This document shows, piece by piece, positions 2,063 to 41,358 of a stretch of 64,000 nt of DNA. Location of the stretch: positions 5,828,001 through 5,892,000 of the forward strand of contig JASTWF010000034.1 of assembly GCA_030390025.1 (NCBI GenBank), written 5' to 3'. Position numbers and translations under genes: made by a program. The stretch comes from Squalus acanthias. Lineage: Eukaryota. The stretch's first letter is position 1. The number at the start of each line of letters is the position of its first letter. The notes under the pieces were generated by a model that ran no database searches, was not told where the DNA came from, and saw only the letters and a program-made list of their open reading frames with translations.

Positions 2063-2159
2063 AGCTCCCTTCACTGTGTCACCTCACACAGTCCGCACGC
2101 TGCCCCCAGCACAAAGACCACCAGACACTCACAGAAGGGAAGGCATAGATTGGGATGAA

Positions 2160-8990: not shown

Positions 8991-8994
8991 ATTT

Positions 8995-14526: not shown

Positions 14527-15428
14527 TCATCCTTTAATGAATTTTACAATCAGAGTAAAAGGATATTTCCCCACATTCTTCAACTGCTCTCTGAACTTAG
14601 TCTGGGTCACGGCGTAAATCCCAGTGTTTGTGCAGCAACTCAGCAGCTGCAGCATGAATCCCAGTTCCAATACATAATCAGGTAGAAGTACAGAAGAATA
14701 CCCCAACCACCACATCCGGCTCCATGTAGAATACACCATAAACACTGCCCATAACAGGATGAAATTTCCGGAGATAACAAGCAGTAAAATGATGGATTTC
14801 CTGCGGCTCTCCATCTCTGGGTCTCTGGGACTCTCCCCACTGCTGGGACCCCGGAGTCTACTGCGGGCTCTGCTGGCCACTAAAATGTGTCTGACGGTGA
14901 CAGCATTGAGCAGCACAATCACCACAAATGGGACACACGGGGTGAGAATATAATGAAGGAGCTCGATTGATCCCCAGACCAGTGAATACTGAACATCCAT
15001 TGTGACCTCACAAAACCAGGGCTTGTTCTGAAGCCCATACTGATCTGTGAACATAAAATGCCAGAAAATGTTCTTTAAACCGCTCAGCACAGTCACTGTT
15101 CCCAGAACCACAGCCGCCGTTTTCTCGGTGCAATGTTTAGTTTTCAGCTTCTGGCAACAAATGGCCACAAATCGATCAAAGGTGAAAGTGACGGTGAACC
15201 AGACAGAACAGTCTGAGGCTGCGAACAGCAGGACGGCGTGGATATTACACACGCGGATGAACCGCACGAAAATAAACTGTTCCCTATAGACAATCGGAAT
15301 GTGCCTCAATATCAGGTCGAGGATGACGACCAGTAGATCCGCCGCTGCCATGGCCACCAGGTAGCGAGTGACACATTTGGAGAGTCCACACTTTCCCCGA
15401 GACAGGATCACAATCGTCACTAAGTTAA
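14527..15428 (-). CDS. GPR139/GPR142-like GPCR, main coding exon, copy 2
   Basis: Mirror of 7164-8065; intact; 4 amino-acid differences (L/I, L/M, R/S, T/A). Confidence 0.88.
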
Positions 15429-17101
15429 CTGTGTGGAAGGGAAATAAACAGGGAAATTATTCATCAGGCTGGGAGCAAAAGCAGCAGTTTGATGGAATTC
15501 GGGGTGAAATCTGCAACTCATTACCGACATTGAATGATATAATCTAATCCTATTACCTGTGGAGCTGAATACAGGGCTTATTGTAAGAATAATCGGGAAT
15601 ACATTGTGGAATCAGTAACTGAAATGGGAATAAACACAATATGAAAGTAACAGATGTTTGATCAAGGAGAGATTAAATGATCGATCTACATTTAGCCCAG
15701 CAGACAAAAGCACCGCCCGAGGTACCAGGGACACAAAGGACCAGACCCTCTCAGGAAGCCTTCGTGTCCCGGGTTCAGTCAGCATTTGGAGCGGTGCAGT
15801 TCGCTTCTGTGCCCCTGTGTTCGGGAGGGGGAAATCCCGCTTGGATTCCTGCTCTTGGTCAGAATATCCATTCTATTTAGAACTGAAAATTAATGCAACA
15901 GCAAAATATAGAAACTGCAACCTTGGCATGCAATAATTACAGGCAATTGTATGTAAAATGTACGGATGTAATATGACAATGCTAAGATACTAAATACAAG
16001 TGTACTGCAGTTATGAAGAAAACTGGGCTGTCAGATATGTTTTGAAGATAGAGATTTCTGCATTTTTGTTGAAATACACAAATTCTAGCTTATTGAAAGG
16101 AAGATTTGCCAAGTAACATTGCAAATAATGGACTCTGAATTAAATAAATAATGATGATTGACCAGGTAATGTCCCACTAAATGCATTTTTCAGCATCGAA
16201 ATCAGACGACTTAACCTACTGGCAAAGTGCCGCCAAATGCTGTTGTAAAGTATCTGAACACAAATGGAAGAGATTTATCCTTATACTTTTTCACCTGTTG
16301 TTTCCAACCTGTGCAGAGAATATTAGACGAGAAGGTATCAAAGGATTTTCTTATCCTCAGTACTTCAGTTACAATCAGCTGGGATTGTTTATCCTGAAGT
16401 ACAGCAGGAGGCAATAGAGAATCACTCTGGGTCTCACTGAGAGATCCACTGAACTGTGACAGACGGGCATGGGATCCAATTGTAAATTCAAAACAATGAT
16501 CAGAAAGAAATGTATTGAAATCTGGCTGAATTAACGTTTTGTGAGAATGTAATTTATCCGTTTAATCCTACTTTAACCATCAGAAGCAGTGCCAATAATG
16601 CAGAACTGGAGAGGGTGGGAAAGGAGACACTGATTGGAACTGAATGATTAGCGGATACTTCAGACTTTTAAAGATGTGGATGTGATCTGCCAGGATTTGT
16701 TCCTTTGACTCTGTAAGTAACCATACCGAGCATTAGGTGAAAACAAAAGCAAAATACTGCGGATACTGGAAATCTGAAATGAAAACAGAAAATGATGGAA
16801 ATACTCAGCGGGTCAGACAGCATCTGTGGAGAGAGAGAGAGAGACAGAGTTAACGTTTCAGGTCGATGGCCTTTCGCCATTAGGTGAAAAGTCTCCTAAA
16901 CCAAGACAGCATTCTTCTGACCTGATACAAATGTTCAGTGTCGGTAGCAGACTGAAATTCGTTCAATAAAGAGTCACCACCAATAAATTTACTTGAGTTG
17001 AACATTTGAATCTTGGTAACACGAAATCAGCTTCAGTATCAATAGCTGACAGCAGCGCGGATGGGATGGGGAACGACAGAGAGAGAAACACAGATAATCA
17101 T

Positions 17102-20100
17102 GGGGGGAAAAGTGGGTTTGTCAGCACCTCCCCTGAGCTCCTTCGGGGGAGGAGGGGTAACGGGGCGATAGGGGCTTAGCTCACGAGTGCGGCTATTTTA
17201 GCGCCGCTCACAAAATTAACCAGTCATTTTGCGCTGGCACTAAACACTGCCGCCACGATCTCCTGCGCCTGCAGATCGTGACATCAGTCGAGCGTGCAAT
17301 GCCCTGGTAGCGCCCCGGACTGAAAATTGAGTCGCGTGCCCTGCCTCAGCCCCTGCCGCTAGGAACGACACGTAGATGGGGAATGTTTTCAGGTCAGGAA
17401 GGGGCTGGGGGAGCGCTATTTAAAGGCGGTTTCCTCCTGCCGTTTCTTGTTGGCGAAATTTTTGTTACATTCAGGTTGAACACGTCTGGAGAGATTCGAC
17501 ACTCACCGAAGGAGTTTTGGGTCGTGAGCACCAATTTGGAGGTTCATTTTTATTTCAGCTTCTAACGATATTAAGAAGCTTCGATGGGGGCTGCACTAAC
17601 TTGGGGCGTAATCGTCCAGCTTCACCTTCGGAGACAGCTGAGGCACAGAGAGAGAGAGAGAGTGGCAAACGCGACCAGAGGGTGTGTGACCACAGACAGC
17701 TCATACTCGCCGTCAATGCCCGCTATCCTGGCAGCAGCGACAATGCTTTTATTCTGCGCCAGACCGGTGTTGCACACATCTTCCAACCACCGTGTCAACC
17801 TAGTGGATGGCTCCTCGGAGACAAGGTTTATCTACTCTGCGTCTGGCTGATGACACCGATCCATAACCCCAACACCCCTGTCGAACTGCAATACAATGAG
17901 AGCCATAGCGCCACCAGGAACATGATAGAGCAGGCGTTCGGCGTCTTGAAACAACGGTTCCGATTTTTGATCACTCAGGAGGAGCCCTGCAATACTCTCC
18001 CGAGCGAGTCTCCCTCTTGATTGTTGTGTGCTGCATGCTTTATAACATTGCAATCATGAGGACGCAGCCATTGCCACTAGGGATTGTTGCACCACCTAGG
18101 AGGAGGAGGAAGGGGGAGAGGAGGAGGAGGATGAGTAGCAGGAGGATGAAGAGGAGAATCAGCAGCACCAACGTGGGAGGGAGGTGTACAATGTTTCCAC
18201 TGAAAGGGCCGTCCGTGAACGGCTCATAAGTCACCGATTCTAACCCCTTACTGAGAAGATGGCTTCTGTGATGAAGAAGCACATCATTGAAAGCATCCCG
18301 CACACCCTGTTGCTGGACAAAGCTGCAATGAGTCAAATCAGAAAAGATGTAAAGTAACAATTAAAAAAATTAGTTGTGTTACCAACTCAGTGTCATTTAT
18401 TCAGGACAAACAAATTGAAACAAACACAACAATTCATGAACTAACAAAACTCGTTCTCACAACATGGAGATGAGCGGGAAAACTGTCAACAAATAGATGA
18501 ATAGCCATCACTGTGTGCAGCCATGTGTTTGGCAGAGGTGCCTATCATAGTTGAATAGCCATTACTGTGTGCAGACATGTGTTTGGCAGAGGTGCCTACA
18601 TAGTTGAATAGCCAGTACTGTGTGCAGCCATGTGTTTGGCAGAGGTGCCTACCATAGTTGAATAGCCATTACTGTGTGCAGCCATGTGTTTGGCAGAGGT
18701 GCCTACCATAGTTGAATAGCCATTACTGTGCGCAGCCATGAGTTTGGCAGAGGTGCGTACCATAGTTGAATAGCCATTACTGTGTGCAGCCATGTGTTTG
18801 GCAGAGGTGTCTACCATAGTTGAATAGCCATTACTGTGTGCAGACATGTGTTTGGCAGAGGTGCCTACCATATTTGAATAGCCATTACTGTGTGCAGACA
18901 TGTGTTTGGCAGAGGTGCCTACCATAGTTGAATAGCCATTACTGTGTGCAGACATGTGTTTGGCAGAGGTGCCTATTATAGTTGAATAGCCATTACTGTG
19001 TGCAGACATGTGTTTGCAGATGTGCCTATCTTAGTTGAATAGCCATTACTGTGTGCAGACATGTGTTTGGCAGATGTGCCTATCTAAGTTGAATAGCCAT
19101 TACTGTGTGCAGACATGTGTTTGGCAGAGATGCCTTACATAGTTGAAGAGCCATTACTGTGTGCAGCCATGTGTTTGGCAGATATGCCTATCATAGTTGA
19201 ATAGCCATTACTGTGTGCAGCCATGTGTTTGGCAGATGTGCCTATTATAGTTGAATAGCCATTACTGTGTGCAGACATGTGTTTGGCAGAGGTGCCTATC
19301 ATAGTTGAATAGCCATTACTGTGTGCAGACATGTGTTTGGCAGAGTTGCCTATCATAGTTGAATAGCCATTACTGTGTGCAGCCATGTGTTTGGCAGATG
19401 TGCCTATCATAGTTGAATAGCCGTTACTGTATGCAGCCATGTGTTTGGCAGATGTGCCTATTATAGTTGAATAGCCATTACTGTGTGCAGACATGTGCTT
19501 GGCAGATTTGCCTCCCATAGTTGAATAGCCATTACTGTGTGCAGACATGTGTTTGGCAGAGGTGCCTATTATAGTTGAATAGCCATTACTGTGTGCAGAC
19601 ATGTGTTTGGCAGAGGTGCCTATCATAGTTGAATAGCCATTACTGTGAGCAGCCATGTGTTTGGCAGATATGCCTATCATAGTTGAATAGCCATTACTAT
19701 GTGCAGCCATGTGTTTGGCAGACATGCCTCCCATAGTTGAATAGCCATTACTGTGTGCAGCCATGTGTTTTCAGACGTGCCTATCATAGTTGAATAGCCA
19801 GTACTGTGTGCAATCATGTGTTTGGCAGATGTGCCTCCCATAGTATATTTTTATTCGTTTATGGGATGTGGGCTTCGCTAGCATGGCTAGCATTTATTGC
19901 CCATCCCTAGTTGCCTTTGAGAAGGTGGTGGTGAGCTGCCTTCTTGAACCGCTGCAGTCTGTGTGGTGAAGGTACTCCCACATTGCTGTTAAGTAGGGAG
20001 TTACAGGATTTTGACCCAGCGATGATGAAGGATCGGCAATATACTTCTAAGTCAGAATGGTGTGTGACTTGGAGGGGAACTTGAAGGCGGTGGTGTTCCC

Positions 20101-20591
20101 ATGCGCCTGCCCTTGTCCTTCTTGGTGGAAGAGGTCGTGGGTTTGGGAGATGCTGCCGAAGAAGCCTTGGTGAGTTGCTGTAGTGTATCTTGTTGAATAG
20201 CGGTTAATGTGTGCAAGGTGTGGGATGTGGATGTGTGTTTTATGAAATGGCCATAGGTTTGAATGAGTGTTGGGCATTTGGGTTTGTCAACCCTCTGGGC
20301 ACAGAGTGAAGTTGAGATGGAGGGATGTAGAGGTTTGGAAAAGAAGGTACTCACCCTGACCACCTGAGTGAGCTCGTTGAACTTCTTCTGACATTGGGTG
20401 TGGGTCCTGGGCACCAGGGCCCTTGGGGAGATGTGCTGAGCCACCTCCCTCCACACTCTTCTAAACTCCCGGGGCGATGGCCTCCTGTGCCTCACAGGGA
20501 ACAACACTGCCCATCGCCGTTCCACAGCACCAACCAGAGCCACCAAAGCCTCGTCGCTCAAGCCCCTAGCTCTTTATCTGGGCCTCTCCAT
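17102..20591. mobile_element. Decayed PIF/Harbinger DNA transposon, copy 2
   Basis: Mirror of 2270-5492. Confidence 0.78.
18495..19845. repeat. 54-bp minisatellite, ~25 copies (mirror)
   Basis: Same unit, reverse complemented; ~270 bp longer. Confidence 0.95.
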
Positions 20592-20625
20592 TATTTTAAA
20601 TTAATAACTGGACATAGATCCTTCC

Positions 20626-20701
20626 TAGAAACGCCGACAGCAGTGAGGAGGGGATAGTACATATTTTGTATGTCATAACATATTCCTAATATCCTAAACA
20701 T
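20626..20701 (-). pseudogene. Defective GPCR exon 1, copy 2
   Basis: Open frame MFRILGICYDIQNMYYPLLTAVGVS, but the same GT>GG donor change. Confidence 0.7.
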
Positions 20702-20798
20702 TTCATCCCAATCTATGCCTTCACTTCTGTGAGTGTCTGGTGGTCTTTGTGCTGGGGGCAGCGCGCTGACTGTATGAGGTGACACAGTGAAGGGAGCT

Positions 20799-20883
20799 CC
20801 TTATTTAGAGCAGAGGGAAATCCCCGAGTGACATCATTAGGCCTCACTGCAACTGGCATTAATTACAGTCATTGAACAAACAG
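20799..20883 (-). promoter_or_regulatory. Putative GPCR-family proximal promoter module, copy 2
   Basis: Mirror of 1978-2062. Confidence 0.6.
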
Positions 20884-22153
20884 ACTCATTGAACCAGAGT
20901 CACTACAACACTTTACTCAACTACCTCCTCTTTCACTGTGACTTTGGCAGCAGCTTCTTCCTTGCTAAAGACAGATGCAAAGTATTTATTTACTATCTCA
21001 GCCATGCCCTCTGCCTCCATTCGTATGTCTCCTTTTTGGCCCTTAATCAGCCCCACCCCACCTCTTACTGCCCGTTTAATATTTATTTGCCGAAAGAAGA
21101 CTTTTGGATTCCATTTTATGTTAGCTGCCAATCTATTCTAATATTCTCTCTTTGCCCCTCTTATTTCCTTTTTCACTTCCTCTTTGAACTTTCTATATTC
21201 AGCCTGGTTCTCACTTGTATTCTGAACTTGACATCTGTCATACGTCCCATTTCTCTGTTTCCTCTTACTCTCCATCTTCCACTATCTCTTTCGTCATCCA
21301 GGGAGCTCTGGCTTTGGTTGCCCTACCTTTCCCCCTCGTGTGAATGTACCTCGATTGTACCTGAATCATCTCTTCTTTAAAGGCAGCCCATTGTTCGATG
21401 ACAGTTTTGCCTGCCAATCTTTGATTCCTTTTACCCAAGCCAGCTCCGTTCTTAACCCACTGAAATTGGCCCTCCCCCAATGAAGTATTTTTACTCTAGA
21501 TTGCTCCTTGTCCTTTTCCATAGCTAATATAAACCTCATGATACTGCGATCACCGTTCCCTGTGCGCTCCCTTACTGAAATCTTCTCCACTTCACCTACC
21601 TCATTCCCCAGAACCAGATCCAGCAATGCCTCCTTCCTCTTTGGGCCAGAAATGCACCAATCAAGAAAGTTCTCTTAAACTCACTAAGGAAATTCTTTCC
21701 CCTCTCTTCCCTTTATACGATTACTATCTCAGTCTATATTAGGATAACTGAAGTCCCCCATTATTAACACTCTATATTTCTTCCACCTCTGCAATTTCCC
21801 TGCAAATTTGCTCCTGTATTTCCTTCCCACCAGTTGGTGGCCTATAGAAGCGTTTTACAGCCAATGATTCTGCCATTCCCATTTGCAACATTTAACCTCT
21901 CCTGCCTTCCACCCTATCACAGACCATCTCTTTTGTTCATTCCTCCCCCCGCCTTTCCCTTCCCCTACACCTGCTTACAATCTGTTACATTTCTAACTTT
22001 TTCCAGTTATGTCGAAGGGTCACAGACCTGAAACGCTAACTCTGTTTCTCTCCCCACGGATGCTGCCTGAATTGCTGAGTGTTTCCAGCATTTTCTGTTG
22101 TTATTTCAGATTTCCAGCATCCGCAGTATTTTGCTATTGTAAGGTCTAAGATA

Positions 22154-22606
22154 AAAGAGAAAGAAAGACTTACATTTATATCGCGTCTTTCACGACCACC
22201 GGACGTCTCGAAGCGTTTTACAGCCAATGAATACTTTTGGAGTGTAGTCACTGTTGTAAGGTGAGAAACACCGCAGCCAATTTGCGCACAGCAAGCTCCC
22301 ACAAACAGCAATGTTATAATGCCCAGATTAATAGTTTTTGTTATGTTGATTGAGCGATAATTATTGGCCAGGACACCGGGGATAACTTCACTACTCTTCA
22401 TCGAACTAGTGCAACGGGATCTTTTACGTCCACCTGAGAGAGCAGTTTAACATCTCATCCGAAAGACGGCACCTCCAACAGTGCAGCACTCCCTCAGTAC
22501 TGCACTGGAGAGTCAGCCTAGATTTATGGTCTCAAGTCCCTGGAGCTTGGAACCCACAACCTCTGACTGAGAGGCGAGTGTGCTACCTACTGAGCCACAG
22601 CTGACA
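22154..22606 (-). mobile_element. DeuSINE, mirror copy
   Basis: Reverse complement of 259-710. Confidence 0.8.
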
Positions 22607-22916
22607 CTGTCAGATGGGTTTACAGAGCATGTGTGTAAACGCACAAAGCGTGGTCAATAAGGTGGGTGAGCTGCAGGCGCAAATAGCCACATAGGAAAAT
22701 GATGTCGTGATGATAACAGAGACCTGGCTCAAAAAGGGTAGGATTGGGTACTAAATATACCTGGATATAAGATGTTCGGGAAAGATAGGGAAGGAAAGAA
22801 AGGAGGTGGATTAGCAATATTGATTAAGGAGAATATAAGTGCTGGAGAAAGAGGATGTCTTCGAGGGGTCAAGGACAGAATCTATTTGGTTACAGTTAAG
22901 AAACAATAGAGGTACC

Positions 22917-24950
22917 ATTACACTGCTCCCACCTCAATCCAGGAATGTGATTCCCAGGGCTGCTTAGATTACACTGCTCCCGCCTCAATCCAGGAATGTG
23001 ATTCCCAGGGCTGTCTAGATTACACTGCTCCCACCTCATTCCAGGAATATCATTCCCAGGGCTGCCTAGATTACACTGCTCCCGCCTCAATCCAGGAATG
23101 TGATTCCCAGGGCTGCCTAGATTACACTGCTCCCACCTCAATCCAGGAATGTGATTCCCAGGGCTGCCTAGATTACACTGCTTCCACCTCAATCCAGGAA
23201 TATCATTCCCAGGGCTGCCTAGATTACACTGCTCCCACCTCAATCCAGGAATGTGATTCCCAGGGCTGTCTAGATTACACTGCTCCCACCTCAATCCAGG
23301 AATTTCATTCCCAGGGCTGCCTAGATTACACTGCTTCCACCTCAATCCAGGAATATCATTCCCAGGGCTGCCTAGATTACACTGCTCCCACCTCAATCCA
23401 GGAATGTGATTCCCAGGGCTGCCTAGATTACACTGCTTCCACCTCAATCCAGGAATTTCATTCCCAGGGCTGCCTAGATTACACTGCTCCCACCTCAATC
23501 CAGGAATTTCATTCCCAGGGCTGTCTAGATTACACTGCTCCCACCTCAATCCAGGAATTTCATTCCCAGGGCTGCCTAGATTACACTGCTCCCACCTCAA
23601 TCCAGGAATTTCATTCCCAGGGCAGCCTAGATTACACTGCTCCCACCTCATTCCAGGAATATCATTCCCAGGGCTGCCTAGATTACACTGCTCCCACCTC
23701 ATTCCAGGAATTTCATTCCCAGGCACAGCCTAGATTACACTGCTCCCACCTCAATCCAGGAATTTCATTCCCAGGACAGCCTAGATTACACTGCTCCCAC
23801 CTCAATCCAGGAATTTCATTCCCAGGACAGCCTAGATTACACCGCTCCCGCCTCAATCCAGGAATTTCATTCCCAGAACAGCCTAGATTACACTGCTCCC
23901 ACCTCATTCCAGGAATTTCATTCCCAGGCACAGCCTAGATTACACTGCTCCCACCTCAATCCAGGAATTTCATTCCCAGGACAGCCCAGATTACACTGCT
24001 CCTGCCTCAATCCAGGAATTTCATTCCCAGGACAGCCTAGATTACACTGCTCCCGCCTCAGTCCAGGAATTTAATTCCCAGGCACAGCCTAGATTACACT
24101 GCTCCCACCTCAATCCAGGAATTTCATTCCCAGGACAGCCTAGATTACACTGCTCCCGCCTCAGTCCAGGAATTTAATTCCCAGGCACAGCCTAGATTAC
24201 ACTGCTCCCGCCTCAATCCAGGAATTTCATTCCCAGGGCTGCCGAGATTACAGTGCTCCCACCTCAATCCAGTAATTTCATTTCCAGGCACAGCCTAGAT
24301 TACACTGGTCCCACCTCAATCCAGGAATTTCATTCCCAGGACTGCCTAGATTACACTGCTCCCACCTCAATCCAGTAATTTCATTTCCAGGCACAGCCTA
24401 GATTACACTGATCCCGCCTCAGGCCAGGCACTTCATTCCCAGGACTGCCTAGATTACACTGCTCCTACCTCAATCCAGGAATTTCATTCCCAGGGCTGCC
24501 TAGATTCCACTGCTCCCACCTCAATCCAGGAATTTTATTCCCTGGGCTGCCTAGATTACACTGCTCCCACCTCAATCCAGGAATTTCATTCCCGGGAGAG
24601 TCTAGATTACACTGCTCCCGCCTCAGTCCAGGAATTTCATTCCCAGGGCCGCCTAGATTACACTGCTCCCACCTCAGTCCAGGAATTTCATCCGCGGGAC
24701 AGACTAGATTACACTGCTCCCACCTCAGTCCAGGCACTTCATTCCCAGGACTGCCTAGATTACACTGCTCCTACCTCAATCCAGGAATTTCATTCCCAGG
24801 GCTGCCTAGATTACACTGCTCCCACCTCAGTCCAGGAATTTCATTCCCAGGGCTGCCTAGATTACACTGCTCCCACCTCAGTCCAGGAATGTGATTCCCA
24901 GGGCCGCCTAGATTACACTGCTCCCACCTCAGTTTAGGAATTTCATTCTC
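22917..24950. repeat. 51-bp minisatellite, ~40 copies
   Basis: Unit gattacactgctcccacctcaatccaggaatttcattcccagggctgccta; ~7 inverted copies at 63270-63617. Confidence 0.95.
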
Positions 24951-25139
24951 AGTCCATTTCTCTTTTGCCTGAAAATGGAAGAAGAAGAAGAAGAGTGACT
25001 TTACCCAGACAAACATGTCATCGTGTTTGACCGAGGGGAAGAATAATTAAAAGGAGCAGAGGATTAAAACGAAGGGATAAAAGGAAAAACACTTAAAATA
25101 TTAACCAACGAGATAAATACGCTGTATGCACCTCAATAC

Positions 25140-25647
25140 TCCAGTAAACACTCTGGAAACATTAAATTCTCGCATAATCATACTCACAGAAACATACCTG
25201 TCAGTCAACATTCTCAAACCCTCCATCACCATTCCAGGGTCTGCACTGACCCACCAGATATTGGGACACAGGGGTATACAATCGGGAGGGAGAAACCCTG
25301 CGAGTCCTCAACATTGCCTGAGGATATAATGAAGTCTGATGGCTTCCACTCAGACATGGGCAAGATAACTTCCTGCCGATTACCACCTACCGCCCTCCCT
25401 CAGCTGATGAATCGGCACATCGTCATGCTGAACACCAGTTGATGGGAGCACCGAGAGCAGAAAAGGCGCAAATTATACTCTGGGTCGGGAGGGGGAAACT
25501 TCAATGTCCATCAACAAGAGTGGCTCGGAAGTACCATCATTAACCGAGTCCTGAAGAACACAGCTGCCAGACTGGGATTGCGGCAGGTGGTGGGAGACCC
25601 AAGATGAGAGAATAGCCTGCTTGACCACGTCCTCACCAACCTACCTA
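25140..25647 (+). mobile_element. CR1-group LINE endonuclease fragment
   Basis: IIILTETYL, YRPPS, FNVH and LDHVLTNL-like motifs; inverted copy at 62570-63050. Confidence 0.65.
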
Positions 25648-26333
25648 TCTGACAGTGCAGTGCTCCCTCAGTACTGCCCCTCTGACAGTGCAGTGCTCCC
25701 TCAGTACTGCCCCTCTGACAGTGCAGTGCTCCCTCAGTACTGCCCCTCTGACAGTGATGCGCTCCCTTAGTACTGCCCCTCTGACAGTGCAGTGCTCCCT
25801 CAGTACTGCCCCTCTGACAGTGCAGCGCTCCCTCAGTACTGCCCCTCTGACAGTGCAGTGCTCCCTCAGTACTGCCCCTCTGACAGTGCAGTGCTCCCTC
25901 AGTACTGCCCCTCTGACAGTGCAGTGCTCCCTCAGTACGGCCCCTCTGACAGGGCAGTGCTCCCTCAGTACTGCCCCTCTGACAGGGCAGTGCTCCCTCA
26001 GTACTGCCACTCTGACAGTGATGCGCTCCCTCAGTACTGTCCCTCTGACAGAGATGTGCTCCCTCAGTATTGCCCCTCTGACAGTGATGCGCTCCCTCAG
26101 TACTGCCCCTCTGACAGTGATGCGCTCCCTCAGTACTGCCCCTCTGACAGTTTTGCGCTCCCTCAGTACTGTCCCTCTGACAGTGATGCACTCCCTCAGT
26201 ACTGCCCCTCTGACAGTGATGCGCTCCCTCAGTACTGCCCCTCTGACAGTGCAGTGCTCCCTCAGTACTGCCCCTCTGACAGAGATGCACTCCCTCAGTA
26301 CTGCCCCTCCAACAATGCAGCACTCCCTCAGTG
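25648..26333 (-). repeat. 33-bp DeuSINE-derived minisatellite, ~21 copies
   Basis: Unit gaggggcagtactgagggagcactgcactgtca on the minus strand; same unit as 61230-61955. Confidence 0.92.
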
Positions 26334-29300: not shown

Positions 29301-29754
29301 GTCAGCATGGCTTTGGAAGGGGGAGATCAGTTCTAAGCAATTTGATTGAAGTGACCAGGTTTCTGGATGAGGGTAGTGCAGTTGATGTCGTCTACATGGT
29401 CTTCAGTAAGGCTTTTGACAACGTCCCACATGGAAGACTGGTCAAGAAGGTAAGAGCCCATGGAATCCAGGGCAATTTGGCACATTGGATCCAAAATTGG
29501 TTTAGTGGCAGGAGGCAGAGTGTGATGGTCGAAGGATGTTTTTGTGACTTGATGCCTGGGTCCAGTGGTGTACCGCAGGGATCGGTGCTGGGACCTTTGC
29601 TGTTTGTAGTGTACATTAATGATTCAGATATGAATGTAGGCGGTATGATCAGCAAGTTCGCAGATGACACGAAAATTGGTGGAGTGGTAAAAAGCGAGGA
29701 CGACAGCCTCAGGCTCCAGGACGATATAAACGGTTTGGTTAGATAGGCAGAACA

Positions 29755-32700
29755 TAGAAACATAGAAGATAGGAGCAGGAATAGTCCATTCGGCCCCTCG
29801 AGCCTGCTCCGATATTCAATGCGATCATGGCTGATCATCCAAATTCAGAACCCTGTCCCTGCTTTCTCCCCATAACCCTTGATCCCTTTAGCCTTAAGAA
29901 ATATAACTAACTCCTTCTTGAATATATTTAATAAATTGGCCTCAACTGCCTTCTGTGGTAGAGAATTTCACAGGTTCACCACTCTCTGGGTGACGAAATT
30001 CCTCCTCATCTCAGTCCTAAATGGCTTACCCCTTATCCTTAGACTGTGACCCCTGGTTTTGGACTCCCCCGCCATCGGGAACATCCTTCCTGCATCTAGT
30101 CTGTCTAGTCCTGTTAGACTTTTATGAGTTTCAATGAGACCCCCTCTGATTCTTCTAAACTCCAGCGACTATAAGCCTAATCGAAACAATCTCTCTTCAT
30201 ACGTCATTCCTGCCATCCCAGGTATCAGTCTGGTGAATCTTCGCTGCACTCCCTCCATGGCAAGAACATCCTTCCTCAGATAAGACGACCACAACTGCAC
30301 ACAATACTCAAGGTGTGGTCTCACCAAGGCTCTGTGCAACTGCAACAAGACATCCTTGCTCCTGTCCTCGAATCCTCTCGCTGTGAAGGCGAACATACCA
30401 TTTGCCTTCTTAACTGCCTGCTGCACCTGCATGCTTACCTTCAGCAACTGGTGCACAAGGACACGCAGGTCTCGTTGCACTTCCCCTTCTCCCAATCTAT
30501 TGCCGTTCAGATAATAAACTGTCTTCCTGTTTTTGCCACCAAAGTGGAAAACCTCGTATTTACCCACATTATACTGCATCTGCCATGCATCTGATCAATC
30601 ACCCAACCTGTGCAAATCATATTGGAGTTTCTCTGCATCCTCCTCACACAGCAGACACACCCACCCAGCTTTGTGTCGTCTGAAAACTTGGAGATATTAC
30701 ATCTAGTTCCCTCATCTAGATTATTAATATATACTGTGAATAGCTGGGGTCCTAGCACCGATCCCTGCAAACGCTCACTAGTCACTGCCTGCCACTCGGA
30801 AAAAGACCCGTTTATTCCAACTCTTTGCTTCCTGTCTGCCAACCAGTTCTCTATCCAAGTCAATACCTTGCCCCCAATCCCATGTGCCTTAACTTTGCAC
30901 GCTAATCTCTTATGCGGGATCTGATCGAAAGCCTTCTGAAAGTCCAAATACACCACATCCACTGGTTCTCCCTTACCTATTCTACCAGTTACATCCTCAA
31001 AAAATTCCAGTAGATTAGTCAAGCATGATTTACCTTTTGTAAATCCATGTTGACTTTGTCCGATCCTGTCACTGTTTTCCAAGTGCTCTGCTATTACATC
31101 TTTTATAATGGACTCTAGCATTTTCCCCACTACCGATGTCAAGCTTACCGGTCTATAATTCCCCGTTTTCTCTCTCCCAGCTTTTTAATATAGTGGAGTT
31201 ATATTAGCTACCCTCCAATCCATGGGAACTGTTCCACAGTCTATAGAATTTTGGAACATGACCAGCAATGCATCGACTATTTCTAGGGCCACTTCCTGAA
31301 GTAACCTAGGATGTAGATTATCAGGCCCTGGGGATTTATCGGCCTTCAGTCACGTCAATTACCCTTCAAATACTGATTTCATTCAGTTCCTCCCTTATTA
31401 GACCCTATGTTCCCCGACATCTCTGAGAGTTTATTTGTGTCCTCCTTTGTGAAGACAGAACCAAAGTATATATTTAATTGATCTGCCATTTCTTTGTTCC
31501 CCATTATAAATTTCCCTGATTCTGACTGCAAGCTTCCTACGCTTGACTTCACCAATCTTTTTCTCTTCACATATCTATGGAATTTTTACAGTCAGTTTTT
31601 ATGTTCCCTGCAGGCTTACTCTCATACTCTATTTTCCCCTCTTAATTAATCCCTTTGTCCTCCTTTGCTGAATCCTAAACTGCTCCCAATCCTTAAGTTT
31701 GCTGCTTTTTGTGACCAATTTATATGTCCTCTCCTTGGATCTTATGCTATTCTTAATTTCCCTTGTTAGCCACGGTTGAGTCACCTTTTTTGCTTTATTT
31801 TTATGCCAAACAGGGATGACGAAATTCTGTAGTTCATCCATGCGATCTTTAAATGTTTGCAATTGCCTATCCACCATCAACCCTTGAAGTAACATTCCTC
31901 AATCCATCCTAGCCAACTCGCGCCTCATACCATCACAGTTTCCTTTATTGAAATTCAGTGCCCAAGTTTCTGAGTCAACTACTACTTCACTCTCCATCTT
32001 AATGAAGAATTCTATCATATTATGATCGCTCCTCCCCAAGGGGCCTCGCACAACAGGATTGCTCATTAATCCTTTCTCATTACATAATACCCAGTCTAAG
32101 ATGGCCTGATCTCTAGTTGGTTCCTCGACATATTGGTCCAGGAAGCCATCCCGTATACACTCAAGGAATTCATTTTCCACAGTATTGTTACTAATTTGAT
32201 TAGCCCAATCTATATGTAGATTAAAGTCACCCATGATAACTGCTGTGCCCTTATTGCACGCATCTCTAATTTCCCGTTTAATGCCATCCCCAACCTCAGC
32301 ATGACTGTTTGGGGGTTTGTATACAAATCCCACTAATGTTTTCTGCCCCTTGGTATTTCTCAGCTCCACCCATACAGATTCGACATCATCCGAGCTAATA
32401 TCCTTCCTTACTATTGTGTGAATTAACTCTTTAACCAGCAATGCTACACCGCCTCCTTTTCCTCTTTGCCTGTTCTTCCTGAATATTGAATACCCCTGGA
32501 TGTTGAATTCCCAGCCTTGGTCACCCTGGAGCCATGTCTCCGTAATCCCAATTATATCATATCCGTTTACATCTATTTGCGCAGCTAATTCATCCACCTT
32601 ATTACGAATGCTCCTCGCATTAAGACACAAAGCCTTCAGGCTTGTTTACTTATCACTCTTAGACCTTTTAGAATTATTGTTTACTGTGGCCATGTTTGAT

Positions 32701-34026
32701 TTACACCCTTGCTTTCTCTGACTTCCACTTTTGCTTTTCTCCTTCCTGTCTTTTGCTTCTATCCTTGCTTCCATTTCCTCTGTCTCCCTGCACAGGTTCC
32801 CAACCCCCTGCCATTTTAGTTTAAACCCTCCTCAACAGCACTAGCAAGCACTCCCCCTAGGACATCGGTCCCGGTCATGCCCAGGTGCAAACTTTCCAGT
32901 TTGTACTGGTCCCACCTCCCCCAGAACCGTTTCCAATGTCCCAGGAATTTGAATCCCTCCTCCTTGCACCATTCTTCCAGCCACGTACTCAGCTGAAATA
33001 TCCTTCTATTTCTACTCTGACTATTCCGTGGCACTGGTAGCAATCCTGAGATTGAGTTCCTATTTTATAATTTACCTCTTAACTCCCTATATTCAGCTTT
33101 TACGACCTCATCCCGTTTTTTACCTATGTCGTTGGTACCTATATGCACCACGACAACTGGCTGTTCACCCTCCCCATCCAGAATACACTGCAGCCGCTCC
33201 GAGACATGCTTGACCCTTGCACCAGGGAGGCAACATACCATCCTGGAGTCTCGTTTGCAGCCGCAGAAACGCCGATCTATTCCCCTTACAATAGACTCCC
33301 CTATCACTGTAGCTCTCCCGCTCTTTTTCCTCCCGTCCTGTGGAGCAGAACCACCCATGGTGCCAGGAAGTTGGCTGCAGCTGTCTTCCCCCGATAAGCC
33401 ATCCTCCTCAACAATATCCAAAGCGGTATATCTGTTTGAGAGGGGGATGGCCACAGGGGACCACTGCACTACCTGCCTGCGCCTACTACTCTGCCTGGCG
33501 GTCACCCATTCCCTTCCTTCCTGTGCAGCGTTTACCTGCGGTGTAACCAACTCATTAAACGTGATATCCACCATGTACTCAGCATCGCGAATGCTCCAGT
33601 ATGTATCCATTCGCAGCTTCAGCGCCGCAATGCGGTCTGCCTGCAGCTGCAGCTGGATTCACTTCCCGCACACATGGTCGTCAGGGACACAGGAAGTGTC
33701 CCTGATTGCCCACAAACTGCAGGAGGAGCATACCACGGGGCCGAGCTGTGCTGCCATGACTTACCTATAAATAATTTAAATTAAATTAAATCAAATCAAT
33801 GCTGCAAATTACACTGCAATTAAATGATAAAGTCAAGGGCCATTGTTTACTAGCACTCCCCGCTACACAACTGAGACCTTAGAAACTATAACCACAAAAT
33901 TAAGACCATCTAAACTTTATAAACTATTAACCTTAACTGTCAAACTATGGAGTCGTGTAAATACTCACCTGGCTGTACTCACTCAATCAGCTGTTTCCTC
34001 TTGCCCGCGTCACGTTTTGAATCGCA
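29755..34026 (-). mobile_element. Near full-length CR1 LINE nested antisense in host CR1
   Basis: 5'UTR, ORF1 esterase, EN, RT and (ctatgttt)-type 3' tail; multiple frameshifts. Confidence 0.92.
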
Positions 34027-34189
34027 AACAGGGGCAAACTGAATTTAACCCGGAAAAGTGTGAGGTGATGCATTTTGGGAGGACTAACAAGGCAAGGAAA
34101 TACGCAATGAATGGTAAGACCCTAGGAAGGACAGAGGACCAGAGGGACCTTGGTGTGCATGTACATAGATCCCTGAAGACAGCAGGACA

Positions 34190-35694
34190 TAGAAACATAG
34201 AAATATAGCAGATAGGAGCAGGAGTAGGCCATTCAGCACCTCAAGCCTGCTCCGCCATTTAATGAGATCATGGCTGATCATCCAAATTCGGTACCCTGTC
34301 CCTGCTTTCTCCCCATATCCTTGATCTCTTTAGCCTTAAGAAATATATCTAACACCTTCTTGAATATATTTAATGAATTGGCCTCTACTGCCTTCTGTGG
34401 TAGAGAATTTCACAGGTTCACCACTCTCTGGGTGAAGAAATTCCTCCTCATCTCAGTCCTAAATGGCTTACCCCTTATCCTTAGACTGTGACCCCTGGTT
34501 CTGGACTCCCCCGCCATCGGGAACATCCTTCCTGCATCTAGTCTGTCTAGTCCTGTTAGAATTTTATAAGTTTCAGTGAGATCCCCTCTCATTCTTATAA
34601 ACTTCAGCGAGTATAATCCCAATCGATCCAATCTCTCTTCATACGTCATTCCTGCCATCCCAGGTATCAGTCTGGTAAATCTTCGCTGCACTCCCTCCAT
34701 GGCAAGAACATCCTTCCTCAGATAAGGCGACCAAAACTGCACACAATACTCAAGTTGTGGTCTCACCAAGGCTCTGTACAACTGCAGCAAGACCTCCTTG
34801 CTCCTGTACTCGAATCCTCTCGCTATGAAGGCCAACATACCATTTGCCTTCTTAACCGCCTGCTGCACCTGCATGCTTACCTTCAACGACTGGTGCACAA
34901 GGACTCCCAGGATCGTTGCCCTTCCCCTTTTCCCAATCTATTGCCGTTCAGATAATAATCTGCCTTCCTGTTTTTGCCACCAAAGTGGATAACCACGCAT
35001 TTATCCACATTGTATTGCATCTGCCATGCATCTGACCAATCACCCAACCTGTCCAAATCATCCTGGAGTTTCTCGGCATCCTCCTCACGGCACACACACC
35101 CACCCAGCTTTGTGTCATCTGCAAACTTGGAGATATTGCATCTAGTTCCCTCATCTAGATCATTAATATATATTGTGAATAACTGGGGTCCTAGCACTGA
35201 TCCCCGCGGTACCCCACTAGTCACTGCCTGCCACTCGGAAAAAGACCTGTTTATTCCAACTCTCTGCTTCCTGTCTGTCAACCAGTTTTCTATACAAGTC
35301 AGTACCTTACCCCCAATCCCATGTGCTTTAACTTTCCACGCCAATCTCTTATGCGGGACCTTATCGAAAGCCTTCTGAAAGTCCAAATACACCACATCCA
35401 CTGGTTCTCCCTTATCTATTCTAACAGTTACATCCTCAAAAATTCCAGTAGATTAGTCAAGCATGATTTACCTTTTGTAAATCCATGTTGACTTTGTCCG
35501 ATCCTGTCACTGGTTTCCAAGTGCTTTGCTATTACATATTTTATAATGGACTCTAGCATTTCCCCCACTACCGATGTCAGGCTTACCAGTCTATAATTCC
35601 CCGTTTTCTCTCTCCCACCTTTTTTAAATAGTGGGGTTATATTCGCTACCCTCCAATCCATGGGAACTGTTCTAGAGTCTATAGAATTTTGGAA
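34190..35694 (-). mobile_element. 5'-truncated CR1 of the same family nested in host CR1
   Basis: RT to 3' tail; highly similar to 29755-31260. Confidence 0.92.
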
Positions 35695-36379
35695 GACAGG
35701 TAGATAAGGTGGTTAAAAAGGCATATGGGATACTTGCCTTCATTAGCCGAGGCATAGAATATAAGAGCAGGGAGGTTGTGTTGGAGATGTACAAAATGCT
35801 AGTTAGGCCACAGCTGGAATACGGTGTGTAGTTCTGATCGCCACACTATAGGAAGGATGTGATTGCATTGGAGAGGGTGCAGAGGAGATTCACCAGGATG
35901 TTACCTGGGCTGGAGCGCTGCAGCAATGAAGAGAGACTGGACAGGCTGGGGTTGCTTTCCTTAGAGCAGAGAAGGCTGCGGGGGGACCTGATTGAGGTGT
36001 ACAAAATTATGAGGGGCATAGATAGGGTAGATAGAAAGGAATTTCCCCCTTAATAGAGGGGTCAATCACCAGGGCACATAGTTTCAAGGTAAGGGGCAGG
36101 AGGTTTAGAGGGGATTTGAGGAAAATCTTTTTCACCCAGAGTGTGGTTGGAATCTGGAACTCACTGCCTGAAACGGTGGTAGAGGCAGGAACCCTCACAG
36201 CATTCAAGAAGCATTGAGATGAGCACTTGAAATGCCATAGCATACAAGGCTACGGACCAAGTGCTGGAAAATGGGAATAGAATAGATAGGGCTTGATGGC
36301 CGGCGCGGACACAATGGGCCGAAGGGCCCCTTTCTGTGCTGTATAACTATAACTATCGATGACTCTATGACAGCGCATG

Positions 36380-36925
36380 ATTTCAAAGTTTGAAAATGAC
36401 AGAAAACTCGGAAATGTTAATAAACAGTGAGAATGATAGTAACAGAAATTCAGGAGGTCGCAGACAGACTGGTGAAATGGGCAGACACATGGCAGATACA
36501 ATTTAACACAGAGAAGGGTGAAGTGATACATGTTGGTAGGAAGCATGAGCAGAGGCAATATCAACTAAACGGTACAATTTCAAAGCGGGTGCACGATCAG
36601 AGAGACCTGGTGTGTACTTACACAAATCATTGAAGGTGGCAGGACAAGTAGCGATGGCTGTTAATAAAGCATACGGAGTCCTTGGCTTTACAAACAGAGA
36701 CACAGAGTAACAAAATCCAGGTAGAAATGTTAACCTTTTAAAAAGCATTGGTTAGACCCCAGCTGGAGTATTGTGTCCAATTCTGAGCACCACACTTTGG
36801 CAAGCATGGCAAGGATTAGAGAAGGTGTAGAGGAGATTTACCAGAATGGTACCAGGGATCTGGATCTTCAATTACGTGGAGAGACAGGAGAAGCTGGGAT
36901 TGTTCTTTTTAGATCAGCGAAGGTT
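36380..36925 (+). mobile_element. CR1 RT C-terminal fragment (old)
   Basis: KWADTWQIQFN and RPQLEYCVQF-like sequence. Confidence 0.75.
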
Positions 36926-38970
36926 AAACATCACAGAATTGTAGAATCGTCGAAATTTACGGCACAGAAGGAGGCCATTTGGCCCATTGCATCTGCGCCG
37001 GTCGAAATAGAGCTTTCCAGCTTAATCCCACTTTCCAGCTCTTGGTCCGTAGCCCTGTAGGTGATGGCACTTCAAGTGCATATCCATGTACGTTTTAAAC
37101 GTGATGAGGGTTTCTGCCTCTACCACCCTTTCAGGCCTTGAGTTTCAGACCCGCACCGCCCTCTGGGTGAAAGAAATTCTCATCTCCCGTCTAATCCTTC
37201 TACCAATTACTTTAAATCTATGCTCCTTGGTTATTGACCTCTCTGCCAGGTGAAATAGGTGCTTGCTATCGACTCTATCTAGGCCCCTCATAATTTTATA
37301 CACCTCAATTAAATCTCCCCTCAGCCTCCTCTGTTCCAAAGTAAAGAACCCCAAACTATTCCCCAGTCTTGGCAACATCCACGTAAATCTCCTCTATAAT
37401 GTTTCAAATGCAATCACATCTTTCCTGTAATGTTTTGACCAAAATTGTACGCAGTATTCTAGCTGTGGTCTAATTGGTGTTTTATACAGTTCTAGCATAA
37501 ACTCCCTGTTTTTATATTCTATGCTTCGACTAATAAAGCAATGTATCCCACATGCCTTTTTAACCACCCTATCTACATGTCCTGATAGTTTTAGAGATAT
37601 GTGGAAATGTACTCCAAGGTCCCTCTGTTCCACTGCACCTCTCAGTATCCTACCATTTATTGTGTATTCCCTTTTTGTTAGCCCGCCACCAATGCATTAC
37701 CTCACACTTCTCCGAAATGAAGTCCATTTGCCACTGTTCTGCTCACCTGACCAGTCCATTGATATCTTCTTGCAGTCTACAGCTTTCTTCATCACTATCA
37801 ACCACACGGCCAATTTTTGTATCATGTGCAAACTTCTTCATCATGGCCCCAACACTGAAGTCTAAATCATTAATATATACCACAAATAGCAGGGGACCTA
37901 GTACTGAGCCCTGTGGAACCCCACTGGAAACAACCTTCCAGTCACAAAAACACCCGTTGACCATTACGACCTTTGCTTCCTGCCACTGAGCCAATTTTGG
38001 ATCCAACTTGCCACTTTCCCTTGGATCCAATGACCAACCTGTCATTTGGGACCTTGTCAAAGGCCTTACTAATATCTACGTGGACTACATCAAATGCACT
38101 CCCCTCATCGACCCTCCTCATTACCTCCTCAAAAAATTCAATCCATTTAGTCAGACACGACATTCCCTTAACATTACCATGCTGACTGTCCTTGATTAAT
38201 CTTGCATTTCGCCTGTAGCCAGAGAGGATTGGAAAATGATGGTCTGAGCCTCCGCTATTTCCTCCCTTAAAAGCCTGGGATACATTTCATCCGAGCCTCG
38301 TGATTTATCTACTTTCAAAGATGCTAAACACCTTAATGTTTCCTCTCTCACTATGTTTGTCTCATCTAATATTTCACACTCCTCCTCCTTAACTACAATG
38401 TCTGCATCATCTCACTCTTCTGTGAAGACAGACACAAAGTATTTATTAAGAACCATATCCACGTCTTCCGCCTCTACACACAGATTCACTGTTTGTTCTA
38501 TAATAGGCCAGACTCTTTCCTTAGTTATCCTCTTGCTCTTGATGTATGCATAAAACATCTTTGGGTTTTCCTTGATTTTACTTGCCAATATTTTTTGATG
38601 CCATCTCTTTGCTTTCCTAATTTACTTTTTAATTTCACCCCTGCACTTTCTATACCCCTCTCGGCTTTCTGTCGTATTGAGCTCTCGGTATCTGACAGAA
38701 GCTTCCCTTTTTTTCCCTTATCCTACCCTGTATTCCCCTTGACATCCAGGGGGCTCTAGATTTGGAAGTCCCATCCTTTATCTTTTTGGGAATATATTTG
38801 CTCTGAGCCCTCACTATCTCCTCGTTGAATGCTTCCCACAGCTCTGCACTGATTTCCAATTAAGAAGCTGTTTCCAGTCCACTTTTCCTAAATCACATCT
38901 CAGCTGAGTAAATTTGGCCTTTCCCCAATTGAAATTTTTAAACCTGGTCTTTCTTTGTCCTTTTCCATCA
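36926..38970 (-). mobile_element. CR1 LINE fragments (linker-RT-3' end) with deletions
   Basis: APWM, SGVPQGSVLGPLLF, LEYCVQFW, LEQRRLRGDLIEVYKI. Confidence 0.85.
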
Positions 38971-39337
38971 GGGGAGATTTAGTATAGATATTCCAGATTG
39001 TAATGGGTTTTGATAGATTAAGTAAGTCTGTTTCCAGAGGCAGAATGGTGGGTAACCAGAGGAAACAAATTTGAAGTAATTGGCAAAAGAACCAGAGGAG
39101 AGATGAGAATGTTCTTTACGCAGTGAGATGTGATCTAGAATGCACTGAGTGAGAACGTGGTGGAAGCAGATTCAATAGTAAATTTCGAAAGGGAATGGGG
39201 TAATTAGATGAAGGGGAATTTTTTTATGGGGCTCTGATTAAAGAGTAGGACTGAATAAATAACTCTTTCAAAGAGACGGCACGGACACGATGGGCCGAAT
39301 GGTCTCTGTATGTGATGTACCGTTCTATGATTCTATG
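38970..39337 (+). mobile_element. CR1 3' end fragment
   Basis: RGD..., gatgggccgaatgg...ttctatgattctatga tail. Confidence 0.7.
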
Positions 39338-39524
39338 AGCAAGAGACAGAGAGAGAGAGAAGAGGGGGAGAGAGAGAAAGGGAGAAAGAGAGAAATAAAA
39401 ATACAGACTGAAAGACAGGGAGAGGTACAGAGGGAAATAAATTAACTTTAAAAGGGGAATTGTATAAATACCTGAAGGGGTACAATTTGCAGGACTATGG
39501 GAAAAGAGCAAGGGAATGGGACTA

Positions 39525-40020
39525 ATTTGAGGGGTGAGGCCATGGTGGGATTTGAACATGAGGAGAAGAATAGTTAAATCGAGTTGTTGCCGGATCGGCA
39601 GCCAATGTTGGTCAGTGATCACAGGGGTGATGGGTGAACGGGACATGATGTGTGTTAGGATATGGGCAGCAGAGTTTTGGATGAGCTCTAGTTTATGGAG
39701 GCTTGTTACTGGGAGGCCGGCCAGGAGAGTATTGGAATAGTCGAGTCTGGATATAACAAAGGCACGGATGAGGGTTTATGCAGCGGAAGGGCTGAGGTGG
39801 AGCGGAGATGGGTGAAATTTTGGGGGCGGTAGTCGGCAGGAATGGTGATTCAGAAGATATGAGTTCGGAACTCAGCTCAGGGACAAAGAGATCGCAGAGG
39901 TTGCAAACAGCCTGGTTCAGCCTCAGACATTGACCAGGGAGGGGGACTGAATCGGTAGATAGAGAATGGAGTTTGTGACGAGGACCGAAGACAATGGCTT
40001 CGCTCTTCCCAAGATTTAAA
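39525..40020 (-). mobile_element. L2-clade LINE RT C-terminal fragment
   Basis: SRLDYSN and ITPV..HWLPI; similar to 46700-47210. Confidence 0.75.
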
Positions 40021-40264
40021 TGACAAACAGTAATACAGTGAAACGTGATTTACAGACCCAATTTCTGGATATAGAGACTTACCAGGGACACCAACAGCAG
40101 CAAAGAATGAAGAATAGTAATACAGTTAGCAAAGGTTTGCAGGGTTAACAGCTGGATAGAGAGACGTACCAGAACAACAATCGCAACAAGGAGGGGAGAG
40201 TAAATGACAAGAACAGTAATACAGTAAAACATGGTTAACAGAATAGCTGGATAGAGAGACTTAC

Positions 40265-40445
40265 CAGGAACACCAACAGCAGCAAGGAGCGGATAGTAAA
40301 TGTATTGAATAATCTCAAGTGCCAAATCTATCCGAATGTTTAATGGTAGTCTATCATAAAGTGCTGAAAGAACGTGAATATCCGAGCTGAAACTCCTGCC
40401 CATTGTTGTAACATTCCAATCTACTGTTCTCAGATTCCGACCCAT
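40265..40445 (-). CDS. GPR139-like GPCR exon 1 (N-terminus + first half of TM1), apparently intact
   Basis: acaATGG start. Encodes MGRNLRTVDWNVTT...IIQYIYYPLLAAVGVP with an NVT sequon. Ends in canonical donor cctg|gtaagt, phase 1 (181 nt). Confidence 0.75.
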
Positions 40446-40573
40446 TGTTGTAACATTCCAATCTAATGATCTCAGATTCCGACTCCCTCTCTGTGGAGCA
40501 GCGCGCTGATCCCTGTCAGTGCCGGAGGTGATGCTGTCACTGACACTGTGGGATAACACATTGAAAGGAGTCC

Positions 40574-40721
40574 CTTATTAATAGAAGAGGGAAACCCTGC
40601 ACTGATACAATTAGAGTCCATGGAGACTGACATTAATTACAGTCACTAAACAAACATCTTCAGTTAACCCGTGGAGACTGACATTAATTACAGTCACTGA
40701 ACAAACAGCTTCAGTTAACCC
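40574..40721 (-). promoter_or_regulatory. Putative promoter of distal exon 1 with tandemly duplicated 51-bp upstream element
   Basis: Two copies of tgtttgtt(c/t)agtgactgtaattaatgtcagt (period 51), then gggtttccc and a TATA-like tattaataaggg. Confidence 0.62.
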
Positions 40722-40759
40722 CTTTCAATCCAACACTTTTTGTACCACAATAAAGTAGA

Positions 40760-41358
40760 ACATTTACCCGGTCCGGATGGGAAATATGAGGATTGCTGAG
40801 GGAAGGAATGGTGGAAATAGCGCAGGCTGTGGCCAGAATATTTCAATCCTCCTCGGATATGGGAGTGGTGCCATAGGACAGGAGGGTTGCAAATGTTACA
40901 CCCTGTTTAAAAAAGGAGAGAGGGATAAACCCTGTAACTGCAGGTCAGTCAGCCTAACGTCAGTGTTGGGAAAACTGTAGAGGCCATATTCACAGAGAAA
41001 AGTATCTGTCTTTGGAAAAAACATGGATTGATAAATGACAACCAGCATGGATATGTTAACGGCAAAGTGTGTCTGACAAACTTGATTAAGTTCTTTGATG
41101 AAGTAACGGAGAGAGTTGATGATGGTAGTGCGTTTGATGTTGTGTACATGGACATTCAAAATGCATTTGATGAAGTACAATTGAATAGACTTGTTAGGAC
41201 CAAAGGGACAGTGGCAGTGGGGATCTGACACTGGCTAAGGGACAGAAAACCGAGAGTAGTGGTGAACGGTTGTTGTTCAGACTGGAGGGAAGTGTACAGT
41301 GGTGTCCCCCAGATGTCGCTATTCGGACCAGTGCTCTTTTTGATATATATTAATGATA
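40760..41358 (+). mobile_element. CR1 RT fragment
   Basis: LFKKGERDKP, QHGY..GKVCLTNL, DVVYMD. Confidence 0.8.

What the first reader, a model, noticed from the sequence alone, without database searches (positions are those of the whole stretch)
14527..40721. Hidden intact receptor gene: distal exon 1 can splice over a 24.8-kb intron that contains a dead proximal exon 1
Seen: the exon 1 nearest each main exon (2160-2235, 20626-20701) has lost its GT donor. A divergent paralogous exon 1 at 40265-40445 (-) has a Kozak ATG, its own promoter module and a canonical phase-1 donor, and no other main exon lies between it and the phase-1 acceptor at 15428. Joining them gives ...YYPLLAAVGVP|VNLVTIVILSRGKCG..., a 360-aa 7TM protein (181+902 nt). 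Both exons are in the same gap-free contig. Inference: the locus has several promoter/N-terminal exon cassettes upstream of one 7TM exon. This suggests N-terminal exon replacement or variable-exon choice, loosely analogous to clustered protocadherin/UGT1 architecture.
Basis: partly seen in the sequence, partly recalled or inferred. Interest (0 to 1): 0.8.

Follow-up and report, generated by a model that had tools for sequence, protein, structure and literature searches.

The report
Shark receptor with replaced first exon
This shark receptor gene carries a dead copy of what was likely its original first exon inside a 25-kb intron and likely splices from a newer upstream first exon instead; the same layout recurs in dozens of sister genes, so it is an inherited family trait, not a live exon-choice system.

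Summary
Observation confirmed exactly: 181+902 nt, 360 aa, 24,836-nt phase-1 intron, no gap, proximal donor GG. The locus is not unusual. Distal (D) > proximal (P) > main (M) was the order in all 30 listed main exons that had both cassettes listed (132 mains listed; median D-M 25.0 kb). D is under selection: TM1 codons dN/dS about 0.05, ectodomain about 2.5. P drifts at about 1, even in 28 formally intact copies, and its promoter mutates at the intron rate. P is deleted in 11 of 21 fetched units (a biased pick) and LINE-broken in a second cluster. Stand-alone genes with a live P-type exon and a 1.6-1.9-kb intron exist, so P is likely the ancestral first exon and D its replacement. The lost GT is private to this pair: 27 of 30 copies keep it. 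N-terminal replacement is supported; UGT1/protocadherin-like choice is not. No D-M junction was seen in RNA. The scan met this family before on other DNA (e1-7939187); my look-ups returned no note of this layout.

The parts
40265..40445 (-). Distal coding exon 1 (D): long-type N-terminus (60 codons + 1 nt), includes the first part of TM1; donor G|GTAAGT
   Evidence: 29 of 30 sampled paralogous D exons are open from an ATG and 30 of 30 have G|GTAAG; dN/dS about 0.05 on TM1 codons, about 2.5 on the ectodomain
40446..40760 (-). D promoter/5' leader module (51-bp duplication 40621-40721; 42-bp repeat around the ATG)
   Evidence: about 72% to the P promoter; pairwise distance 0.041 vs 0.066-0.072 in flanking LINE pieces
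40050..40264 (-). Repeats of the exon end with two extra donor-like sites (40169, 40082); both would join the main exon out of frame
   Evidence: similar repeats follow first exons in sister genes
15429..40264 (-). Predicted 24,836-nt phase-1 intron, filled with LINE pieces and 33-, 51- and 54-bp satellites
   Evidence: splice not observed
20717..20905 (-). Relic proximal promoter (P)
   Evidence: consensus 2.1% from the live C29 gene, but varies at the intron rate among subfamily copies
20626..20716 (-). Relic proximal exon 1 (P), short type: start codon ATA, donor A|GG
   Evidence: promoter+exon 89% to the live exon 1 of L189/L190; dN/dS about 1
20052..20595 (-). Harbinger-like transposon remnant, Myb/SANT part, directly behind P
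   Evidence: weak Pfam Myb_DNA-bind_4 hit on the mirror copy, below the curated cut-off; present behind P in most subfamily copies
17424..18020 (+). Harbinger-like DDE transposase remnant
   Evidence: Pfam DDE_Tnp_4, E 1.4e-17
15429..16700 (-). 3' part of the intron shared with stand-alone short-type genes
   Evidence: 80-88% to L171-173, L189-190, C26 and L261-268
14527..15428 (-). Main exon (M): rest of TM1 to C-terminus of a class A GPCR, shark-expanded 'GPR139-like' family
   Evidence: Pfam 7tm_1 E 1e-20, starting at profile position 2; 75-81% to the best shark gene models; only 35.7 bits to the PDB chains named GPR139
2145..2235 (+). Mirror copy of relic P (also has a stop codon)
7164..8065 (+). 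Mirror copy of the main exon (7 differences in 902 nt); its D lies left of the window

Best explanation
This is likely an ordinary two-exon receptor gene of a shark-expanded GPCR subfamily, predicted to splice the distal exon 1 to the main exon across a 24.8-kb intron that holds the dead remnant of what was likely the gene's earlier first exon. Inferred history: a long-type promoter/exon-1 cassette came to lie upstream of a short-type gene (P, 2-kb intron, M), probably once, by fusion of neighbours in a tandem cluster. P then lost its role and the whole D-P-M unit was copied many times. Shown: the anatomy, its recurrence, neutral drift of P and selection on D and M. Inferred: the splice, the single origin, the direction of replacement, and ongoing exchange of D cassettes between paralogs by gene conversion.
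For: Order D>P>M in 30 of 30 mains with both cassettes listed; median D-M 25.0 kb. D keeps frame and donor (29 of 30 and 30 of 30). On the same 11 TM1 codons dN/dS is about 0.05 in D (grid CI 0.05-0.1) and 0.9 in P (0.5-1.5), and 0.8 (0.4-1.75) in 28 formally intact P copies. Main exon: loops 2.7, rest 0.45. P promoter singletons 0.32 per site vs 0.38 in the intron; shared-to-singleton ratio not different, p=0.8. P is absent with D kept in 11 of 21 fetched units and split by a LINE in the C7 cluster, where a D-like cassette lies upstream in 5 of 5 loci checked. Live P-type stand-alone genes have no D in 47 gap-free kb (L189, L190). The D-P interval is colinear between a C7 unit and the window unit at 83-86%. 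M begins inside TM1, so it needs a first exon. One contig joins a sister short-type exon 1 exactly at the 15428 acceptor position.
Against: No RNA contig showing a D-type exon joined to M was seen. The only spliced contig came from a short-type sister gene, 16 loose ends were not displayed, and other contigs cross the acceptor unspliced. P is formally intact (ATG, open frame, GT) in 17 of 52 rows (one row probably a duplicate) and 14 of 20 further copies. Internal-branch length of the P promoter (0.054) is below the intron's (0.163), a weak hint of residual constraint. Paralog lists are incomplete and chosen by similarity; dN/dS comes from a simple one-ratio model on short exons with gene conversion. 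The colinear pieces are repeats, so they could match as families rather than as orthologous insertions.
Confidence: 0.8

Rival explanations
1. Live alternative promoters: in many paralogs both D and P are transcribed and spliced to M, giving two N-termini per receptor (a two-cassette UGT1-like design); only this pair lost P.
For: 31 of 72 P rows examined keep ATG, frame and GT. The same A|GTAAG donor is found in live sister genes, and one such exon is seen spliced. The P promoter consensus is only 2.1% from the live C29 promoter.
Against: dN/dS is about 1 even in the intact subset, and 0.15 is rejected on its TM1 codons (2dL 20.5). The promoter varies at the intron rate. P has been lost by deletion, LINE insertion, ATG loss, stops and donor loss.
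Confidence: 0.08
2. D is an orphan exon whose own main exon was deleted, and the window's main exon is a recently silenced pseudogene of a P-M gene.
For: No junction was seen for this locus. The third main exon nearby is frameshifted, so dead copies exist.
Against: D keeps frame, donor and strong constraint across 29-30 copies. Main exons behind dead or missing P stay open and constrained. The spacing is the subfamily norm.
Confidence: 0.06
3. Same present-day function, other history: the ancestor had both promoters alive, and the P-only genes (C29, C7 L171-173) arose by losing D, rather than D being added to a P gene.
For: In the intron tree the P-only genes are sisters of D-bearing clades (C7 0.99; C29 0.76). 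Their upstream homology to D-bearing units ends 24-100 bp before the P promoter.
Against: Short-type genes with the same 3' intron are widespread and deeper (C26, and the C977/C2450/C3239/C3476 group). P decay is neutral from the start of the subfamily's radiation. Conversion can distort the tree.
Confidence: 0.25

Closest known systems
Automatic gene models 'probable G-protein coupled receptor 139' of Pristiophorus, Heptranchias and Heterodontus (e.g. P0004, P0005, P0030 long type, 359-360 aa; P0003, P0065 short type, 330-332 aa)
   Same: 75-81% identity to the main exon among the best hits; the same YYP...VP|VN junction; the same long or short N-terminus classes.
   Different: The models say nothing of a relic first exon in the intron, and their introns could not be read here. 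The name is a best-hit label: the PDB chains named GPR139 score only 35.7 bits.
UGT1 / clustered protocadherin variable-first-exon clusters (PMC3325998, PMC1885805; abstract starts in a search listing)
   Same: Homologous first exons, each with its own promoter, upstream of one downstream exon with a shared splice phase.
   Different: Here only two cassettes, one of them dead. Each D has its own main exon, and diversity comes from at least 480 whole-gene copies, not from promoter choice.
Chimeric gene formation / exon shuffling followed by birth-and-death expansion with gene conversion (general knowledge, recalled)
   Same: New 5' exon on an old gene body, relic left in the intron, diversifying selection on extracellular parts, a conversion tract over exon 1.
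   Different: The whole 25-kb chimeric unit with its relic was amplified into a subfamily of at least 69-131 copies, and the relic died by several independent routes.

Membership tests
UGT1/protocadherin-type variable-first-exon cluster | Tandem homologous first exons, each with its own promoter, upstream of a common downstream exon | tested here: met
   Two cassettes (D, P) in the order D>P>M in 30 of 30 mains with both listed
UGT1/protocadherin-type variable-first-exon cluster | Several first exons are functional and kept by selection | tested here: not met
   P dN/dS about 1, promoter neutral, many independent losses
UGT1/protocadherin-type variable-first-exon cluster | Many variable exons share one constant region | tested here: not met
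   3 D, 3 P, 3 M in 264 contiguous kb; D and M largely alternate along contig C2671 (incomplete lists)
UGT1/protocadherin-type variable-first-exon cluster | Each first exon is seen spliced to the constant exon in RNA | tested here: inconclusive
   One lay of four contig sets showed neither a D-M nor a P-M join; the table was cut
Rhodopsin-class (class A) GPCR | 7tm_1 domain above the Pfam cut-off | tested here: met
   74.8 bits vs cut-off 30.5, profile 2-260
Shark-expanded GPR139-like family | High identity to the shark gene models and the same two-exon junction in TM1 | tested here: met
GPR139 (true orthologue) | Single highly conserved gene close to mammalian GPR139 | tested here: not met
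   E 5e-8, 35.7 bits to the PDB GPR139 chains; at least 480 copies; no tree with GPR139 or GPR142 was built

The most novel reading that the evidence does not exclude
Sharks build a large, fast-evolving receptor repertoire from interchangeable promoter/N-terminal cassettes: first exons are swapped between paralogs by fusion and gene conversion, and loci with a still-intact proximal cassette make two N-termini from one receptor body by promoter choice.
Probability: 0.1. Interest if true: 0.7.

Novelty: new variant of a known kind. Interest (0 to 1): 0.4.

Why it matters
It fixes the gene model for a subfamily of probably over a hundred receptors whose nearest exon-1-like sequence is a decoy for annotation. 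It is also a well-replicated natural record of first-exon replacement: live progenitor-like genes, a shared fused unit, several independent deaths of the old exon, and diversifying selection on the new one. The family is the larger open question. It has at least 480 copies with hypervariable extracellular parts, in a group described as poor in GPCRs (PMC8455134, passages read). My paper searches returned no description of it in the held library.

Tried and rejected
(1) Apparent strong conservation of the P promoter (0.022 vs 0.09-0.11) was rejected as sampling bias: in 28 loci not picked for promoter likeness it is 0.077, like the 3' intron at 0.080, with no deficit of shared variants. (2) The dN/dS point values of exactly 1.00 are optimiser start values; the grid profile replaces them. 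Stop codons were set to gaps. (3) Run search: no RNA holder listed on record as RNA. A lay across a short D-M paralog gave no result, so that junction test is open. (4) The main-exon protein tree (93 rows, 9 homologues skipped by a motif filter, pseudogenes left out) groups mostly by species with low support; used only as a hint that long and short N-termini are interspersed. (5) An exact 20-mer for M (480 hits) spans other subfamilies, so it cannot be divided by the D (131) and P (69) counts. (6) A cryptic rescue donor near the window's P end: none scored above 4 before 20495, and the only strong one (20354) is in the Myb remnant (simple weight matrix, values recalled). (7) Papers: eight searches. 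PMC6504862 (passages and section 47) names fish/coelacanth GPR210A/B beside GPR139/142 and has no shark mention. PMC12208981 gave no hits for the terms asked. No supplements were read; gene-family tables in shark genome papers could list this family. (8) Earlier-finding look-ups by sequence and by words returned nothing.

Full report
Observation. The two exons, their sites and the 360-aa product are as described: 181+902 nt, donor G|GTAAGT, intron 24,836 nt, all in one gap-free stretch, with no other main exon between. Both proximal copies read A|GG at the donor. The main exon is a class A GPCR body that starts inside TM1, so it cannot work without a first exon. Its best relatives are automatic 'GPR139-like' models of other sharks; similarity to the solved chains named GPR139 is weak.

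Setting. The window is G000:C2671:5828001-5892000 of a 3.7-Gb shark-type assembly. It lies in a 98-99% identical inverted duplication centred on the gap at 11266-11765 and reaching about 33 kb each way. The + strand main exon therefore has its own D just left of the window. Whether the two arms are two loci or two haplotypes was not resolved.

The layout is a family trait. The family is large: 480 exact hits for a main-exon 20-mer, 131 for a D motif and 69 for a P motif (all lower bounds). Of 132 listed main exons, 30 had both a listed D and a listed P within 60 kb, all in the order D>P>M, with median D-M distance 25.0 kb; one of the 30 has another main exon between. 29 had P only, 27 D only and 46 neither, with incomplete lists. 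I fetched 21 units, many chosen because P was not listed: 5 had D+P+M, 11 had D+M with P missing although its flanks often remain, 3 had P+M with a gap or the fetch edge upstream, and 2 had a gap and neither cassette. None showed P+M alone over gap-free DNA that lacked D's flank.

Which first exon is alive. Among the 30 D copies nearest the window's, 29 are open from an ATG and all 30 keep G|GTAAG. Among the 30 nearest P copies, 27 keep A|GTAAG, so the lost GT is private to this pair, but most have lost the start codon. In wider samples P is formally intact in 17 of 52 rows and 14 of 20 further copies. Selection separates the two cassettes (one-ratio codon model, grid profile). On the 11 homologous TM1 codons dN/dS is about 0.05 for D and 0.9 for P, and 0.8 for formally intact P. 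The D ectodomain runs at about 2.5. The main exon shows 2.7 in extracellular loops and 0.45 elsewhere (30 copies). The P promoter first looked conserved, but that sample was biased; in less biased loci it varies like the intron.

Where P came from. Two genes on C29 (L189, L190) carry an intact P-type exon (ATG, A|GTAAGT), 89% like the window's P over promoter and exon, about 1.9 kb before their main exon, with the same 3' intron and no D in 47 gap-free kb. More distant short-type genes share this build. On scaffold C7 a sister clade has P split by a LINE, with a D-like cassette upstream in 5 of 5 loci checked. The DNA between D and P is colinear between a C7 unit and the window. I infer one fusion of a long-type first exon onto a short-type gene, then decay of P by several routes. 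The reverse history, an ancestor with both promoters alive and P-only genes as D losers, is not excluded. Long-type N-termini occur in gene models of at least three other shark genera, so D itself is old.

Exchange of first exons. The window's D exon is 99.4% identical to a copy on C3315 whose flanks match at only 96-98%, and 91.7% to its own mirror copy whose flanks match at 97.6-99%. This pattern fits a gene-conversion tract over promoter and exon; it is one case.

RNA. No holder was on record as RNA. Four contig sets guessed to be RNA cover the main exon and also the intron. One contig leaves the stretch exactly at 15428 and continues into a sequence that matches 8 short-type exon-1 ends in the genome exactly over 26 bases. 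This supports the acceptor and phase for the family but not the D-M join, which remains unobserved.

Comparison and verdict. It works like a chimeric two-exon gene in a birth-and-death receptor cluster. It is not a member of the UGT1/protocadherin class, because only one cassette per gene is maintained and each has its own body. I found no description of the family or layout in the held papers. An earlier scan note covers the same family on other DNA for another feature.

Noticed in passing
window 1-11265 vs 11766-45194 (and left of the window to about -22,000): 98-99% inverted duplication centred on a 500-N gap with a 29-bp satellite on both sides; it may be an uncollapsed second haplotype rather than a real palindrome.
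   Followed up: partly
G000:C2671:5767300 (D) and 5893700-5900300 (P, M); window 49073-60628: A lone intact D and a D-less P-M unit sit on contig ends that carry the same 31-bp satellite on the same strand, so they are probably one gene split by scaffolding; that main exon is frameshifted.
   Followed up: partly
window 40050-40760: Probable gene-conversion tract: the D exon is nearly identical to a copy on C3315 (L062) but diverged from its own mirror copy.
   Followed up: partly
window 40082 and 40169: Duplicated exon-end/donor modules behind exon 1, also present behind short-type first exons; one scores as high as the true donor but gives the wrong phase.
   Followed up: partly
window 20717-20905 and 40490-40720: The promoter module holds a kappaB-like, a TATA-like and a FOX-like motif (names recalled, not tested); with the hypervariable extracellular parts this hints at an immune or chemosensory role for the family.
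   Followed up: no
window 17424-20595 and 2261-5280: Harbinger-like remnant (Myb/SANT plus DDE) in the intron; in this clade a deletion puts the Myb start codon about 30 bp behind the relic exon, while other copies keep about 650 bp between them.
   Followed up: partly
window 40399-40483; L092: The N-terminal 14-codon repeat varies in number between paralogs (many copies in L092, up to six in other sharks' models) and carries an N-glycosylation-type motif (recalled).
   Followed up: no
G000:C21:0.4-10.5 Mb; L151-L158, L165-L168: A separate dense cluster of short-type family genes, often about 20 kb apart, with first exons about 1-5 kb from the main exon.
   Followed up: partly
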